A DNA stretch of 64,000 bases, from the NCBI RefSeq assembly GCF_988242995.1, contig NZ_OZ547043.1; one strand, given 5' to 3'. Made by a program: the position numbers and the translations under genes. The notes under the pieces are model-generated. The model was given only the letters and a program-made list of their open reading frames with translations. It was not told the DNA's origin and searched no databases. Position 1 is the stretch's first letter. Every line of letters starts with the position of its first letter. This document shows, in pieces, positions 38,010 through 43,398 of this stretch.

Positions 38010-38363
38010 ATGTCATTTCTGTTACCCATCCAACTGTTCAAAATTCTTGCCGATGAAACCCGTCTGGGCATCGTTTTACTGCTCAGCAAACTGGGAGAGT
38101 TATGCGTCTGCGATCTCTGCACTGCTCTCGACCAGTCGCAGCCCAAGATCTCCCGCCACCTGGCATTGCTGCGTGAATGCGGGCTATTGCTGGATCGCAA
38201 GCAAGGTAAGTGGGTTCATTACCGCTTATCGCCGCATATTCCAGCATGGGCGGCGAAAATTATTGATGAGGCCTGGCGATGTGAACAGGAAAAGGTTCAG
38301 GCAATTGTCCGCAAACTGGCTCGACAAAATTGTTCCGCAGACAGTAAGAACATTTGCAGTTAA
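38010..38363 (+). CDS. arsR: arsenite-responsive repressor ArsR
   Basis: 117 aa with metalloid-binding ELCVCDLC motif within the HTH region. Confidence 0.93.
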   Translation: MSFLLPIQLFKILADETRLGIVLLLSKLGELCVCDLCTALDQSQPKISRHLALLRECGLLLDRKQGKWVHYRLSPHIPAWAAKIIDEAWRCEQEKVQAIVRKLARQNCSADSKNICS

Positions 38364-39719: not shown

Positions 39720-40145
39720 ATGAGCAACATTACCATTTATCACAACCCGGCCTGCGGTACGTCGCGTAATACGCTGGAGATGATCCGCAACAGCGGTACA
39801 GAACCGACCATTATCTATTATCTGGAAACACCGCCAACGCGCGATGAGCTGGTCAAACTCATTGCCGATATGGGGATTTCCGTACGCGCGCTGCTGCGTA
39901 AAAACGTCGAGCCGTATGAGGAACTGGGCCTTGCAGAAGATAAATTTACTGACCATCAGTTAATCGACTTTATGCTTCAGCACCCGATTCTGATTAACCG
40001 CCCGATTGTGGTGACGCCGCTGGGAACTCGCCTGTGCCGCCCTTCAGAAGTGGTGCTGGAAATTCTGCCAGATGCGCAACAAGGCGCGTTCACCAAGGAA
40101 GATGGCGAGAAAGTGGTTGATGAGGCGGGTAATCGCCTGAAATAG
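39720..40145 (+). CDS. arsC: arsenate reductase ArsC (glutaredoxin-coupled)
   Basis: 141 aa starting MSNITIYHNPACGTSRNTL (catalytic Cys12 context). Confidence 0.93.
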   Translation: MSNITIYHNPACGTSRNTLEMIRNSGTEPTIIYYLETPPTRDELVKLIADMGISVRALLRKNVEPYEELGLAEDKFTDHQLIDFMLQHPILINRPIVVTPLGTRLCRPSEVVLEILPDAQQGAFTKEDGEKVVDEAGNRLK

Positions 40146-40147
40146 CT

Positions 40148-40175
40148 AAAGGGGGATATGCCCCCTTATTTGTTC
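40148..40175. terminator. hairpin terminator between convergent arsC and the ArsR-like gene
   Basis: aaggggg-atat-ccccctt followed by atttgttctt. Confidence 0.6.
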
Positions 40176-40486
40176 TTCGTGGCCCCTTCGCCATGTGTTT
40201 TGCTATTTACGCAGCACTCCTCGCGTAAGAATTCAATTATCGCTTCCAGCATTGCGTATTGCGAAACACACATCAGCGTTCGACTCTCACGGTTTTGTTT
40301 GACCAGCCCTACCGATACCAGTGCTGAAATATGGTGACTGAGTGTGGAGCCGGGTATCCCAAGCTGCTTTTGCAACTCACCGACCGGCAAACCTTGTTCC
40401 CCCGCTTTGACCAGGTGTTTGAATATGAACAAACGGGTCGGGTGACCTAGCTCTTTCAGCGCTTTAGCAACTTCTTCCAACTGCAT
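40166..40486 (-). CDS. ArsR/SmtB-family HTH regulator (second copy, atypical; C-terminal Cys pair)
   Basis: 106 aa; N-terminus ALKELGHPTRLFIFKHL typical of ArsR/SmtB; lacks the ELCVCDLC site but has EECC near the C-terminus. Confidence 0.75.
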   Translation of the reverse strand: MQLEEVAKALKELGHPTRLFIFKHLVKAGEQGLPVGELQKQLGIPGSTLSHHISALVSVGLVKQNRESRTLMCVSQYAMLEAIIEFLREECCVNSKTHGEGATKNK

Positions 40487-40508
40487 ATGACACCCCCTTT
40501 GTCTGGTT

Positions 40509-40569
40509 GATATTTCGATAATACCAGAAATATCTTGATCTGAATTTTATTTCGATTATTCTGGAAATA
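40509..40569. promoter_or_regulatory. two similar inverted repeats (GATATTTC-N10-GAAATATC and TATTTC-N10-GAAATA) in the divergent promoter; candidate operators
   Basis: Read directly at 40509-40534 and 40548-40569. Confidence 0.45.
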
Positions 40570-40593
40570 TAGATTTAATCAATGAGGTTGCGT

Positions 40594-41595
40594 ATGAATA
40601 GTTGGCTTGCGATGCTGCAAGATGCCGCAGAGATGTTTGTGTTTCTCGCCGTTGAGCTTTCTTTGCTGTTTATAGTGATTAGTGCCGGTGTGAGCCTGAT
40701 AAGACAAAAGGTGCCAGACCATAAAATCCAGCAGATGATGGGGGCCAGAAAAGGGAGAGGTTATCTCCTGGCTGCTCTGTTGGGAGCCGTTACCCCGTTC
40801 TGTAGTTGCTCGACAATCCCCATGTTACGTGGATTGTTATCAGCGAAAGCCGGGTTTGGTCCGACCCTCACTTTTTTATTTGTTTCACCGCTACTTAATC
40901 CCATTATCGTCGGGTTAATGTGGGTGACTTTTGGCTGGAAAGTTACCTTGTTGTACGCGATTATCGCCGCCGGCGTCTCCGTACTTGCCAGTATTATCCT
41001 GGATTCTCTGGGATTTGAACGTCATATCATTGCCAGTAAAAGCTCATCAGCAAATTGTTGTGCTCCAGCCAAAACTTCGCCAGGGACGACATATACGCCC
41101 ATAAAAGTGAGTTGCTGTAGTCCAGCGGCTAAAGTCATTGAGAAACCCGCAGTTAACTGTTGCAGTACCAAAGCAGTGGCAAGTATTAATCCCATAAAAT
41201 TAGCCATTAAAGATGCATTGCAGCAGTTTAAAGACGTACTGCCATATCTTGTGTTAGGGGTATTACTAGGCTCTTTTATTTATGGCTTTATCCCCTCACA
41301 GTGGATTGCCGCTCATGCAGGGGCAGATAATCCCTTCGCCATCCCGTTGAGCGCCGTTGTCGGTATTCCGCTGTATATCCGGGCAGAGGCGGTTATCCCT
41401 CTGGCATCAGTTCTGATGACGAAAGGCATGGGTCTGGGGGCATTAATGGCATTAATCATCGGCAGTGCCGGAGCAAGTCTGACGGAAGTGATATTACTTA
41501 AATCAATGTTCAGAATACCGATGATAGTTGCATTCCTGACGGTTATATTAGGTATGGCTATCTTGATGGGCTATTTGACTCAAATGCTATTTTAA
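40594..41595 (+). CDS. ArsP-like permease (putative organoarsenical/metalloid efflux permease) with TPFCSCS motif and Cys-rich loop
   Basis: Polytopic membrane protein; TPFCSCSTIP motif as I recall from ArsP; central soluble loop with three CC pairs; start at ATG 40594 (SD gagg) preferred over 40582. Confidence 0.65.
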   Translation: MNSWLAMLQDAAEMFVFLAVELSLLFIVISAGVSLIRQKVPDHKIQQMMGARKGRGYLLAALLGAVTPFCSCSTIPMLRGLLSAKAGFGPTLTFLFVSPLLNPIIVGLMWVTFGWKVTLLYAIIAAGVSVLASIILDSLGFERHIIASKSSSANCCAPAKTSPGTTYTPIKVSCCSPAAKVIEKPAVNCCSTKAVASINPIKLAIKDALQQFKDVLPYLVLGVLLGSFIYGFIPSQWIAAHAGADNPFAIPLSAVVGIPLYIRAEAVIPLASVLMTKGMGLGALMALIIGSAGASLTEVILLKSMFRIPMIVAFLTVILGMAILMGYLTQMLF

Positions 41596-42174
41596 ATAGA
41601 TGCCAGCAGTAAACTATAAGGAGCATTGTGAGTGCCTTATCCTTCTGAGTAGAAAATCATAGATAGGATAATCCTTAAAAATCACAAATAACTTAACTAA
41701 TGCTTTGAGAATGATGACGGATCCGTCAGTAAGTCATCAATCGACAATCACCACGCAATCATGCTTCTCTGACATTTTATCGGAGAAGCAATGTCTCTTT
41801 GTTTCAGTGCTATCCCCCCTTTTAAAGGGCAGATTTCAGTCGCCAATACAACACATTTTTAAATACACTTTAACCTGGTTCATTATTACACATCTAAAAC
41901 ATCACAAAAATATCACTTCACACACTATCGGTGAACATCATAACTTTTTAAAATGAGCGCTTTTTGATAGTTGTTAACGTTTTCCTTTACGATACTATCA
42001 CTGCCCTTTTTTTATACACAAATATTACCGGGTGGAAATGAAAGGGAAGTTAAAGGTAATTATATCAGGAAGATATGACGCATTGTGTTTATTTCCGCGT
42101 AGAAGAAAATCCATTCCTGCTCTAATTCTCCGATTTAAAAAATTTAGCGAAATAGATGAACAATAAGGAATGTT

Positions 42175-43398
42175 ATGTCAATTGACTTTACCCCAGGTAT
42201 GATAAATACATATCACGGCGATATTTATAACCGCACAACAGATACCGACAATGTTAAAACACCAGACACACCGATGTGGCCTTGTGATAATCAGGAAGAA
42301 CAGCAACCCATTAATTTTTCATTGTCTGAAGAAGGATATAACGCTGAACAATTTGATTTAGCGCAACAACAACTCCAACAAATTAATGCGTGCCACACGA
42401 ACACTACATATACAAATGCAGACTACTCAAAAGTTGTGGCTCAACTTGTAAGTCTTATTACTAACATTGAAACGATAAGTTCGACACCACTTACGCAACA
42501 GACACAATCAATACTTAATCAGATTAATAACATTAGATACGAAAAAAACAAAAGTGCTGAATGTCGAATCATTGTTGTCGCTAATCCTAAACCCGACAAG
42601 GCAATCATAACTAAAATTAGCGTAGAAGAGGGAATACCAGTAAGATTCAGTGTCCAAACCATGTTTTCAGATACTAATTTTATTGCTGAACAACAGGCTG
42701 ACTTACCTACTAATATAAAAGATATTCAAAACCTGTATCAAAAAATGACGAAGTTATATATTGAGCACAGTGAAAATAAAAACAGGATGAAAGTCTTTGC
42801 CGGAACCAACTTTATTGATTTCAATATGACAGGACAGAACCTGTCCGGGTTCGTTCTAACCTTGTCAAGGTTTTATTTCGAAGATCTACTTAATATAAAT
42901 TTCACTGACGCAAATTTAGGTGACACTATTTTTTCACATAAAGAACACCCTACCCCAAAATTATATAAAGACGAACAATATCTTGACAAACAAATCGAAG
43001 GTTTATTTTCAACATTATTAACCATTAATGACAACTTTTTACGAGCAAAAGCGGAAATTGCTTCGACAATAATTAAATTCTTAGAGGCCAGGATAACCAA
43101 TATTTCATACAATGACATATTAAAATATCAGCAAGAATTCAAAAAACAATGTTATAAGCAAGTTAAAGCCTTTACGACACTCTCCCGATACAATAAAATT
43201 CAAACATGGGCAGAAATGTCTGAATATCAATTCGAAGTATTTCAATACGAGACGCTTAACCCAAAAAAAATGTCATACGCACCTTATTTAAAGAGATCGC
43301 TACCTGATGAAAAAACTATAAATTATGGGGTGGAAATAGAAACACCATCTGGCAAAAGAATTCGCTTATCAAATCATTACCAGAATATAATCCCATAA
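42175..43398 (+). CDS. yhiS: uncharacterized protein YhiS, apparently intact (407 aa)
   Basis: Position between the ars region and slp; AT-rich, Asn/Ile-rich soluble protein. Confidence 0.6.

What the first reader, a model, noticed from the sequence alone, without database searches (positions are those of the whole stretch)
40509..40569. Duplicated inverted-repeat operators in the ArsR-like / ArsP-like divergent promoter
Two related dyads, GATATTTC-(10)-GAAATATC at 40509-40534 and TATTTC-(10)-GAAATA at 40548-40569, lie between the divergent start codons. Repeated dyads of this size are the typical binding architecture for ArsR/SmtB dimers and suggest the regulator controls both genes.
Basis: seen in the sequence. 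Interest (0 to 1): 0.35.

Follow-up and report, generated by a model that had tools for sequence, protein, structure and literature searches.

The report
Conserved operators of an ArsR-family repressor
The two inverted repeats are real and deeply conserved, and they are almost certainly the binding sites through which a small ArsR-family repressor shuts off both its own gene and a neighbouring cysteine-rich efflux permease: an ordinary kind of switch, but for an uncharacterised, widespread and plasmid-borne gene pair.

Summary
GATATTTC-N10-GAAATATC lies at 40509-40534 and TATTTC-N10-GAAATA at 40548-69. The pattern occurs only twice in 64 kb, against 0.01 expected.

In 80 related loci, from Aeromonas to Vibrio, Shewanella, Pseudovibrio and Desulfobacterales, the core ATTTC-N10-GAAAT follows the regulator gene. 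A site lies about 33 nt before its ATG in 66 of 80 loci, against about 1 expected. All 46 divergent regulator/permease spacers hold at least two sites.

The layout is modular. The regulator promoter has one dyad. The permease promoter has two: one abutting a conserved TTGAC -35 and one over the -10. In E. coli the two modules share site 1. Each dyad centre sits 35.5 nt from its start codon and carries a -10-like hexamer pointing at that gene.

The regulator is closest to AfArsR (PDB 6J05). It has invariant C73, C91 and C92 but lacks AfArsR's third cysteine. Relatives sit next to arsH and arsBC, so a trivalent arsenical, possibly an organoarsenical, is the best guess for the inducer.

Binding, transcription starts and the inducer were not tested. 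This is a new member of a known kind, of modest interest.

The parts
40166..40486 (-). ArsR/SmtB-family regulator gene (106 aa), with invariant C73, C91 and C92.
   Evidence: Pfam HTH_20 and HTH_5. NCBIfam NF033788, 61.6 bits against a cut-off of 55. Best solved relative is AfArsR 6J05. Cysteines are conserved in 83 of 83 relatives.
40493..40499 (-). Shine-Dalgarno sequence of the regulator (AAGGGGG), 6 nt before the ATG.
   Evidence: Read from the sequence.
40509..40534 (.). Operator site 1 (GATATTTC-N10-GAAATATC). It is centred at 40521.5, which is 35.5 nt from the regulator ATG.
   Evidence: Invariant across E. coli, plasmid, Aeromonas, Limnobaculum and Buttiauxella copies while the flanks diverge. 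Scores 35.0 bits with the out-group matrix. An equivalent site lies 20-60 nt before the regulator ATG in 66 of 80 loci.
40518..40526 (-). Predicted extended -10 of the regulator promoter (TGGTATTAT on the minus strand), in the centre of site 1. The predicted start is near 40511.
   Evidence: The same position reads TAnnnT in the regulator's direction in 64 of 66 loci, and TGn precedes it in 23 of 66. This is inferred; no start site has been mapped.
40535..40540 (+). Predicted -35 of the permease promoter (TTGATC), directly abutting site 1.
   Evidence: A TTGAC/TTGATC-like hexamer starts 23-28 nt after the start of the distal core in 44 of 45 spacers, followed by a 16-18 nt spacer. Inferred.
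40546..40571 (.). It is centred at 40558.5, which is 35.5 nt from the permease ATG.
   Evidence: Scores 34.7 bits. It is conserved but less strictly than site 1: the right arm has decayed in the plasmid copy, which scores 27.3 bits.
40557..40562 (+). Predicted -10 of the permease promoter (TATTCT), in the centre of site 2. The predicted start is near 40569.
   Evidence: It lies 16 nt after the TTGATC hexamer. The same geometry holds in the eight copies with 37-39 nt site spacing where a -10 was called at this position. In the 48-52 nt class the -10 (TATATT or TATAAT) lies on the left arm of the proximal site. Inferred.
40584..40587 (+). Shine-Dalgarno sequence of the permease (GAGG), 6 nt before the ATG.
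   Evidence: Read from the sequence. The RefSeq start is at 40594.
40594..41595 (+). PF03773 (ArsP_1) permease gene (333 aa), with an invariant TPFCSCST motif (C70, C72) and three CC pairs in the central loop.
   Evidence: Pfam, 176 bits against a cut-off of 32.3. [quoted passage not shown] The motif is invariant in 48 of 48 relatives, while the loop varies.

Best explanation
The two dyads are operators of the ArsR/SmtB-family repressor encoded at 40166-40486. They lie over two back-to-back sigma-70 promoters in the 107-bp spacer.

**Regulator promoter.** Site 1 carries in its centre the -10 of the regulator's own promoter (TGGTATTAT on the minus strand).

**Permease promoter.** Site 1 also abuts the -35 (TTGATC) of the permease promoter. 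Site 2 carries that promoter's -10 (TATTCT) in its centre.

**Switch.** Without inducer, one repressor dimer sits on each dyad and keeps RNA polymerase off both promoters. This gives autoregulation plus repression of the permease. A thiol-seeking inducer then binds the cysteine pair C91-C92 at the end of helix alpha-5, possibly together with the invariant C73 of the partner subunit. The repressor leaves the DNA and the CSC-motif permease is made to export the inducer.

**Inducer.** My best guess is a trivalent arsenical, and in the E. coli clade, which lacks a third C-terminal cysteine, possibly an organoarsenical such as methylarsenite or reduced roxarsone.

**Shown:** the motif, its conservation, its linkage to the regulator and permease genes, its fixed geometry, and the protein family.

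**Inferred:** binding, repression, transcription starts, one dimer per dyad, and the inducer.

The confidence given is for the operator/repressor part. I put the arsenical inducer at about 0.45.
For: **The motif is non-random and unique in the window.**
-.

**Phylogenetic footprint.**
- Site 1 is invariant and site 2 largely conserved in copies whose flanks have diverged.
- All 46 divergent regulator/permease spacers, from more than 15 genera and three classes, hold at least two core sites.

**Linkage to the regulator.**
- 66 of 80 loci have a site with at most one mismatch 20-60 nt before the regulator ATG (mode 33-35 nt). Shuffled upstream zones give about 1 of 80.
- Site density is 7.9 per kb in promoter zones against 0.053 per kb elsewhere.
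- Loci without an adjacent permease keep this single site.

**Linkage to the permease.**
- Where the permease lies apart from the regulator (L022, L046, L060, L070, L080), its upstream region still has two sites 50-51 nt apart.
- Vibrio has three sites: one at the regulator and two at the permease.

**Promoter overlap.**
- A conserved TTGAC -35 abuts the distal site, and the -10 lies inside the proximal site, in 44 of 45 spacers.
- The centre of the regulator-side site reads TAnnnT in 64 of 66 loci.
- In the window both dyad centres lie 35.5 nt from their ATG.

**The protein.**
- It belongs to the ArsR/SmtB family.
- The recognition helix STLSHH is invariant.
- The model has pLDDT 89.9, with helix alpha-4 at 46-58 and alpha-5 at 77-95.
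- The best structural match is AfArsR 6J05, TM 0.82-0.90.
- The CC pair aligns with AfArsR C95/C96.

**Arsenic context.**
- The pair sits next to arsRBC here and next to arsBC in Buttiauxella.
- The regulator is followed by arsH (402 bits against a cut-off of 292) in Hafnia and Pantoea.
- ArsP exports MAs(III) and Rox(III), and ArsH oxidises MAs(III) (PMC6205960).
- SpArsR, which lacks the third cysteine, responds to MAs(III) only (PMC11868830, PMC13236881).
Against: - There is no experimental binding, expression or start-site data for this pair in anything I could read.
- The regulator promoter has no recognisable -35 in the window. It would have to rely on the TGn extension, which is present in only 23 of 66 relatives.
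- The centre-to-centre distance of the two sites varies (37, 39, 48-52 nt). No helical phasing is conserved, so cooperativity cannot be argued.
- Most marine loci have no ars gene within 2.5 kb. In 17 Vibrio loci (an 18th hit, in a Shewanella locus, lies elsewhere in the locus) the regulator is co-operonic with a SigZ-type sigma factor, which does not point to arsenic.
- The invariant C73 has no counterpart in AfArsR or, as described, in SpArsR.
- The permease is below the cut-off of every specific NCBIfam family.
Confidence: 0.8

Rival explanations
1. The operators and repressor are as described, but the signal is not an arsenical. The C73/C91/C92 thiols would sense another soft metal (Cd, Cu(I), Zn, Hg, Sb) or a thiol-reactive or oxidative signal, and the permease would export that metal or compound.
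For: - The permease's nearest named families are the SO_0444 Cu/Zn efflux family and SaoE, although below their cut-offs. SO_0444 is needed under Zn and Cu stress (PMC3219624).
- The CSC motif is read as a heavy-metal site in those families (bioRxiv 10.1101/2022.07.06.499078).
- CC-rich loops occur in many of the permeases.
- Most marine loci have no ars neighbours, and Vibrio loci pair the regulator with a Cys-rich SigZ-type sigma factor.
- There are weak similarities to BigR and YgaV.
Against: - SO_0444 scores 109 bits against a cut-off of 300 and is controlled by a MerR-type regulator, not an ArsR-type one (PMC3219624).
- BigR scores 38 bits against a cut-off of 155, and the alpha-2 cysteine of BigR/SqrR-type sensors is absent.
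- The best sequence and fold match is an As(III) sensor whose CC pair aligns.
- arsH and arsBC are neighbours in four enterobacterial genera.
Confidence: 0.3
2. The dyads are bound by some other DNA-binding protein (a global regulator or nucleoid protein), and the neighbouring ArsR-family gene is a bystander.
For: The sites are AT-rich and overlap promoters, as many global-regulator sites do. No binding data exist.
Against: - The motif travels with this regulator gene at a fixed distance in Gamma-, Alpha- and Deltaproteobacteria-type genomes and on plasmids, with or without the permease.
- The regulator's recognition helix is invariant, as is the DNA core.
- No further copy exists in 64 kb of E. 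coli chromosome.
Confidence: 0.04
3. The inverted repeats act as RNA hairpins in the 5' leaders (attenuator, stability or translational element) rather than as DNA operators.
For: Site 1 folds as an 8-bp hairpin on either strand (-7.1 and -7.2 kcal/mol; z = -2.0 and -2.6).
Against: - The site 2 hairpin is not better than shuffles (-3.2 kcal/mol, z = -0.9), and the whole spacer is unremarkable.
- No Rfam family reaches its threshold.
- The arms are conserved in sequence rather than by compensatory change. Position 0 becomes C in 6 of 45 site-1 copies while its partner stays A in 44 of 45, and G6/A15 do not pair in 33 of 45.
- With the predicted starts, most of each dyad is not transcribed.
Confidence: 0.03
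4. The regulator acts as an activator or anti-silencer at the permease promoter from site 1, which lies just upstream of the -35, rather than as a repressor.
For: Site 1 abuts the -35, a position used by some activators. At least one ArsR-family member (HlyU) increases expression of its targets (my knowledge).
Against: - A second site always overlaps the -10 of the same promoter.
- The regulator-side site overlaps its own -10-like element.
- This is the layout of steric repression, which is the rule in the family (PMC11868830 for four ArsR types).
Confidence: 0.04

Closest known systems
AfArsR of Acidithiobacillus ferrooxidans (type 2 As(III) site; PDB 6J05)
   Same: It is the best sequence match (E = 3e-10) and the best fold match (TM 0.82-0.90, 29-30% identity). 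Its vicinal cysteines at the end of alpha-5 align: AfArsR C95/C96 with C91/C92 here. In 38 of 83 relatives a further Cys follows 4-7 residues later, as C102 does in AfArsR.
   Different: The E. coli/Aeromonas clade has no third C-terminal Cys. All 83 members instead have C73 in the second wing strand, which AfArsR lacks. Identity is only about 30%. I could not read AfArsR's operator, so the DNA sites were not compared.
SpArsR of Shewanella putrefaciens 200 (methylarsenite-selective ArsR)
   Same: [quoted passage not shown] From memory of the original abstract (Chen et al. 2017, not held in the library), it controls arsP and arsH. Those are the same two kinds of gene found next to this regulator family.
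   Different: Its cysteines are numbered 101/102, against 91/92 here, and it is described as having only two conserved cysteines, against three here. Orthology was not tested because neither the sequence nor the paper was available. The gene order may also differ.
SmtB/CzrA-type operator-promoters (12-2-12 inverted repeats, sometimes two per promoter)
   Same: Imperfect inverted repeats spanning 26 bp, more than one per promoter, overlapping core promoter elements, and bound by a winged-helix dimer of the same family (my knowledge). Fold similarity to CzrA and SmtB is shown.
   Different: The sequence is unrelated: ATTTC-N10-GAAAT here, against the TGAA/TTCA-type cores there. The sensing site is made of cysteines, not the alpha-5 His/Asp/Glu site. 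The targets are arranged divergently and share one operator.
The chromosomal E. coli ArsR (arsRBC, window 38010-38363), 2 kb upstream
   Same: It is an ArsR-family repressor of an arsenic efflux gene, in the same chromosomal island.
   Different: It is only 31% identical over 62 residues. It has a different recognition helix, and its CVC site (ELCVCDLC) aligns with GLPVGELQ here. No ATTTC-N10-GAAAT site lies at the arsRBC promoter. The two are therefore separate regulons.
Campylobacter jejuni arsP (organoarsenical efflux permease) under its ArsR
   Same: It is a PF03773-family permease with a vicinal Cys-x-Cys pair, under an ArsR-family repressor that binds an inverted repeat (PMC6205960 for function; the cysteine detail and the operator are from memory).
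   Different: There it is part of a four-gene operon with arsC and acr3. Here it is a two-gene divergent module. Sequence relatedness between the two permeases was not measured here. Two distinct arsP clusters, possibly with different functions, are reported (PMC6205960).

Membership tests
ArsR/SmtB family of winged-helix regulators | HTH_5/HTH_20 domain and the fold alpha1-alpha2-alpha3-alpha4-beta-beta-alpha5. | tested here: met
   PF12840 E = 1.8e-14 and PF01022 E = 7.6e-07. NF033788 scores 61.6 bits against a cut-off of 55. The model has helices at 3-13, 16-31, 35-42, 46-58 and 77-95 and strands at 62-67 and 70-75. The top 50 fold hits are essentially all family members or ArsR-like winged-helix regulators.
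Type 1 ArsR (R773/K-12 type) | A Cys-x-Cys-x-x-Cys As(III) site in the alpha-3 region (ELCVCDLC). | tested here: not met
   The aligned stretch is GLPVGELQ, with no cysteine before residue 73 in any of 25 aligned members.
Type 2 ArsR (AfArsR type) | A vicinal Cys pair at the C-terminal end of alpha-5. | tested here: met
   C91/C92 align with AfArsR C95/C96 and are invariant in 83 of 83 relatives.
Type 2 ArsR (AfArsR type) | A third Cys a few residues downstream (C102) that completes the three-sulfur As(III) site. | tested here: not met
   The window protein ends CCVNSKTHGEGATKNK. This Cys is absent from the E. coli, plasmid and most Aeromonas copies and present in 38 of 83 relatives, mostly Vibrio.
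SpArsR type (MAs(III)-selective) | AfArsR-like, with only the vicinal pair, and selective for MAs(III). | tested here: inconclusive
   The pair without the third C-terminal Cys is present, but so is an extra invariant C73. The SpArsR sequence and paper were not available. Ligand selectivity cannot be tested with these tools.
BigR/SqrR/YgaV-type thiol or persulfide sensors | One Cys in alpha-2 and one near the C-terminus that form a di- or tetrasulfide link; a family-specific HMM. | tested here: not met
   NF040642 scores 38 bits against a cut-off of 155. There is no Cys in alpha-2, residues 16-31.
ArsP / PF03773 permeases | A Pfam ArsP_1 domain with the conserved Cys-Ser-Cys motif. | tested here: met
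   176 bits against a cut-off of 32.3. TPFCSCST is invariant in 48 of 48 relatives.
ArsP / PF03773 permeases | Efflux of trivalent organoarsenicals (MAs(III), Rox(III)). | not testable with these tools
   The function is known only for C. jejuni ArsP (PMC6205960).
SO_0444 Cu/Zn efflux family and SaoE family | An NCBIfam equivalog score above the cut-off. | tested here: not met
   109 bits against a cut-off of 300, and 86.5 bits against 325.
Repressor-operator pair (autoregulated divergent module) | A conserved palindromic site overlapping core promoter elements and co-inherited with the regulator. | tested here: met
Repressor-operator pair (autoregulated divergent module) | Physical binding of the regulator to the site, released by the inducer. 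| not testable with these tools
   This needs EMSA, footprinting or anisotropy with purified protein.

The most novel reading that the evidence does not exclude
This is an undescribed ArsR subtype. Its sensing site would be built across the dimer interface from C91-C92 of one subunit and the invariant wing-strand C73 of the other. It would work through a modular operator code: one ATTTC-N10-GAAAT dyad on its own promoter and two on the permease promoter. In the enterobacterial clade it would respond to organoarsenicals such as methylarsenite or reduced roxarsone. The two-gene module, present in about 40% of complete E. coli genomes and on more than 600 mostly conjugative resistance plasmids, would then be an organoarsenical resistance cassette that arsenical feed additives could co-select together with antibiotic resistance genes.
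Probability: 0.3. Interest if true: 0.6.

Novelty: new member of a known kind. Interest (0 to 1): 0.35.

Why it matters
The switch is of a familiar type, so the finding does not change how ArsR-family regulation is understood. Its value is practical.

- **A precise, testable regulatory map for an unnamed gene pair.** The pair is annotated only as 'ArsR/SmtB family transcription factor' and 'permease'. It is present in 2221 of 5426 complete E. coli genomes and on 616 plasmids of Escherichia, Salmonella and Klebsiella, some next to IS26 and blaCTX-M-55.
- **A ready biosensor design.** The operator consensus, the predicted promoters and the three invariant cysteines give a direct basis for a biosensor or reporter.
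- **A route to the inducer.** The same features can be used to test whether these bacteria sense and export organoarsenicals.

Tried and rejected
**RNA element.** An Rfam scan of 40350-40750 gave only a sub-threshold snoRNA hit (21.7 bits against 43). The folding energies were weak. Rejected.

**Wider regulon in the window.** A core search with one mismatch gave 7 hits against 3.3 expected, and only the two known sites were exact. The weight-matrix scan found nothing else above 12 bits. There is no sign of control of arsRBC or any other gene here.

**Permease as a named family.** I considered filing the permease under SO_0444 or SaoE. Both are below cut-off, and SO_0444 is controlled by a MerR-type regulator. 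Rejected.

**BigR/YgaV-type sensing.** Rejected.

**Primary papers.** I tried to read the papers on SpArsR (PMC5653410 and its DOI), AfArsR (PMC2859433), ArsP (PMC4681449) and the arsRM operon (PMC8881391). None is held. Their operators could therefore not be compared, and SpArsR orthology stays open.

**Literature searches.** Searches for DUF318+ArsR, SaoE, ArsP+Cys65/67 and the SpArsR supplement gave nothing useful on this pair.

**The 37-nt direct repeat as a recent tandem duplication.** The similarity outside the dyads is weak. Other genera have 48-52 nt spacing with unrelated inter-site sequence. The repeat therefore mostly reflects two operators rather than a recent duplication.

**Recombination site or transposon end.** Rejected, because the dyads lie between the two genes in every context, chromosomal and plasmid alike.

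Full report
**Setting**

The window is an E. coli chromosome. It is 100% identical over the 1601-bp stretch queried (40100-41700) to strain NY1601, isolated from chicken faeces. The local gene order is gor, dinQ, arsR, arsB, arsC, then a 106-aa ArsR-family gene on the minus strand (40166-40486), a 333-aa permease on the plus strand (40594-41595), a yhiS-like gene, slp and dctR. RefSeq annotates the pair only as 'ArsR/SmtB family transcription factor' and 'permease'. It is present in 2221 of 5426 complete E. coli genomes.

**The observation**

- The 8-nt arms of the first are perfectly complementary, with 10 nt between them.
- TATTTC-N10-GAAATA occurs twice in 64 kb, both times here, against 0.01 expected. 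None of 100 shuffles gave two matches.
- The repeat finder also shows that the two dyads are two copies of a 37-nt direct repeat.

**Conservation**

At short range, site 1 is invariant in a 94% identical E. coli copy, an 84% identical plasmid copy, three Aeromonas, a divergent E. coli lineage, Limnobaculum and Buttiauxella, while the flanking spacer has diverged freely. Site 2 is conserved less strictly.

At long range, I fetched 80 loci that encode relatives of the regulator at 58-91% identity. They come from Aeromonas, Photobacterium, Vibrio, Shewanella, Endozoicomonas, Thalassotalea, Colwellia, Pseudovibrio, Desulfobacterales and others. In 46 spacers (43 of these loci, plus the window and two copies fetched earlier) the regulator and a homologue of the permease are divergent neighbours. 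Every one of these spacers has at least two sites with the core ATTTC-N10-GAAAT.

Positions outside the core that I used for searching are also near-invariant:

| Position | Conservation |
|---|---|
| G6 | 44/45 |
| A7 | 45/45 |
| T11 | 45/45 in the distal site |
| A21 | 44/45 |

In Vibrio the site is the fuller palindrome ATTTCGA-N6-TCGAAAT.

**The motif follows the regulator**

In 66 of 80 loci a site with at most one core mismatch is centred 20-60 nt before the regulator ATG, most often 33-35 nt. Shuffled upstream zones give about 1 of 80. Site density is 7.9 per kb in the promoter zones and 0.053 per kb elsewhere in 380 kb.

Loci in which the regulator has no adjacent permease keep exactly this one site. 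Where the permease lies elsewhere in the locus (L022, L046, L060, L070, L080), its own upstream region has two sites 50-51 nt apart. Vibrio spacers have three sites: one at the regulator, and two at the permease 50 nt apart.

The design is therefore modular, with one dyad for the regulator promoter and two for the permease promoter. In the compact E. coli/Aeromonas version, site 1 does both jobs.

**Promoters (inferred)**

*Permease promoter.* In 44 of 45 spacers a TTGAC/TTGATC-like hexamer starts 23-28 nt after the start of the distal core, which means it directly abuts the dyad. A 16-18 nt spacer follows, then a -10. Where the sites are 48-52 nt apart, this -10 falls on the left arm of the proximal site (TATATT or TATAAT). 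In eight of the nine copies where they are 37-39 nt apart, it falls in the centre of the proximal site. In the window these elements are TTGATC at 40535-40540 and TATTCT at 40557-40562.

*Regulator promoter.* Read in the regulator's direction, the centre of the regulator-side site is TAnnnT in 64 of 66 loci (TAATAT 22, TATTAT 21). TGn precedes it in 23 of 66. In the window this is TGGTATTAT at 40526-40518.

*Symmetry.* The window is strikingly symmetrical. Both dyad centres are 35.5 nt from their start codon, both -10 candidates sit in the same register within their dyad, and both Shine-Dalgarno sequences are 6 nt from the ATG. A bound protein would cover the -10 of each promoter and flank the -35 of the permease promoter, which is the standard layout for steric repression. 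No conserved helical phasing exists between the sites (37, 39, 48-52 nt), so I do not claim cooperativity.

**The regulator**

- It is an ArsR/SmtB protein, and its recognition helix (STLSHH) is invariant.
- The AlphaFold model is confident (pLDDT 89.9). It places C73 in the second wing strand and C91/C92 near the end of alpha-5, which spans residues 77-95.
- The best sequence and fold match is the As(III) sensor AfArsR, and its C95/C96 align with C91/C92.
- C73, C91 and C92 are present in 83 of 83 relatives.
- A further cysteine 4-7 residues after the pair, comparable to AfArsR C102, occurs in 38 of 83 relatives but not in the E. coli clade.
- The published SpArsR also lacks that third cysteine and responds only to methylarsenite (PMC11868830, PMC13236881).
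- The regulator is only 31% identical to the classical ArsR 2 kb away, and it lacks that protein's CVC site.
- No copy of the motif lies at the arsRBC promoter.

**The permease and the likely signal**

The permease is a PF03773 (ArsP_1) protein. Its TPFCSCST motif is invariant, and its central cysteine-rich loop is variable. It falls below the cut-offs of the SO_0444 Cu/Zn and SaoE families.

*Pointing to arsenic.* The pair sits beside arsRBC in E. coli and beside arsBC in Buttiauxella. In Hafnia and Pantoea the regulator is followed by arsH. ArsP exports trivalent organoarsenicals, and ArsH oxidises them (PMC6205960).

*Pointing away from arsenic.* Most marine loci have no ars neighbour. In 17 Vibrio loci the regulator precedes a SigZ-type sigma factor gene.

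I therefore put the arsenical inducer at about 0.45 and another thiophilic signal at about 0.3.

**Rival readings**

- *RNA hairpin:* weak. The energies are small, no Rfam family matches, and the arms are conserved in sequence without compensatory change.
- *Another binding protein:* unlikely, given co-inheritance with this regulator across classes and on plasmids.
- *Activation rather than repression:* does not fit the overlap with both -10 elements.

**Verdict**

It is a new member of a known kind: an autoregulated ArsR-family repressor with duplicated operators in a divergent promoter. The operator consensus, modular layout and candidate sensing cysteines are now defined. The main open questions are the inducer and the role of C73.

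Noticed in passing
L042:2751-3353 and 16 other Vibrio loci (e.g. L015, L036, L044, L072): In 17 Vibrio loci (plus one weaker hit in a Shewanella locus that lies elsewhere in the locus) the regulator gene is followed by a SigZ-type ECF sigma factor gene that overlaps its end (PRK09637, 234 bits against a cut-off of 212). That protein has a cysteine-rich C-terminus (EECCDLT...CPHC). The repressor may therefore gate a sigma factor regulon there.
   Followed up: partly
L047:2770-3546 (Hafnia psychrotolerans) and L082:2770-3555 (Pantoea MAG): The regulator is followed by arsH (TIGR02690, 402 bits against a cut-off of 292), with a single dyad upstream of the regulator. L047 also has an ArsK-like MFS transporter (166 bits, below the cut-off of 400). 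L082 has convergent arsC and arsB.
   Followed up: partly
L002, L084, L085 (plasmids pCRST010, p2-65, pTREC1): An 80-91% identical copy of the pair (91.5% for the regulator protein, 80.4% for the permease; 84% at DNA level) lies on 616 plasmids: Escherichia 400, Salmonella 186, Klebsiella 32. Of these, 457 are predicted conjugative, and IncHI2 and IncF types occur. It is flanked by IS26 and, in pTREC1, sits next to ISEcp1-blaCTX-M-55. Many isolates are from chicken. In these copies the right arm of site 2 has decayed (GGAAATA to AGAATAA; 27.3 against 34.7 bits). A plasmid paper calls a similar pair arsR/arsP without functional tests (PMC9484752).
   Followed up: partly
window 40100-40198; L003:2859-2993: Most E. 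coli copies match the window only from 40198 onward. The arsC-regulator junction and the regulator's C-terminal tail therefore vary between strains: 98 aa ending CCVNSKIA in strain G5, against 106 aa here.
   Followed up: no
window 40149-40167: A GC-rich hairpin (AAGGGGGATATGCCCCCTT, followed by a T-run) lies between the arsC stop and the convergent regulator stop. It is a candidate two-way terminator.
   Followed up: no
window 42175-43398: A 407-aa yhiS-like ORF with no Pfam hit lies here. RefSeq marks the corresponding gene as a frameshifted pseudogene in the identical strain and in strain G5.
   Followed up: no
L069:2818 and L078:2817 (Desulfobacterales): A second dyad lies just downstream of the regulator gene. 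In L078 it lies in front of a distant PF03773-type permease with a SPFCSCG motif (25% identical; 110 bits to SO_0444, below cut-off). Here a TTGACA follows the regulator-side dyad instead of a -10 lying inside it, so the promoter layout differs in this lineage.
   Followed up: no
spacers of L007, L008, L009 compared with L012-L083: The distance between the two permease-promoter sites falls into discrete classes: 37, 39 and 48-52 nt. The enterobacterial/Aeromonas class looks like a roughly 12-nt deletion that moved the -10 from the left arm to the centre of the proximal site.
   Followed up: partly
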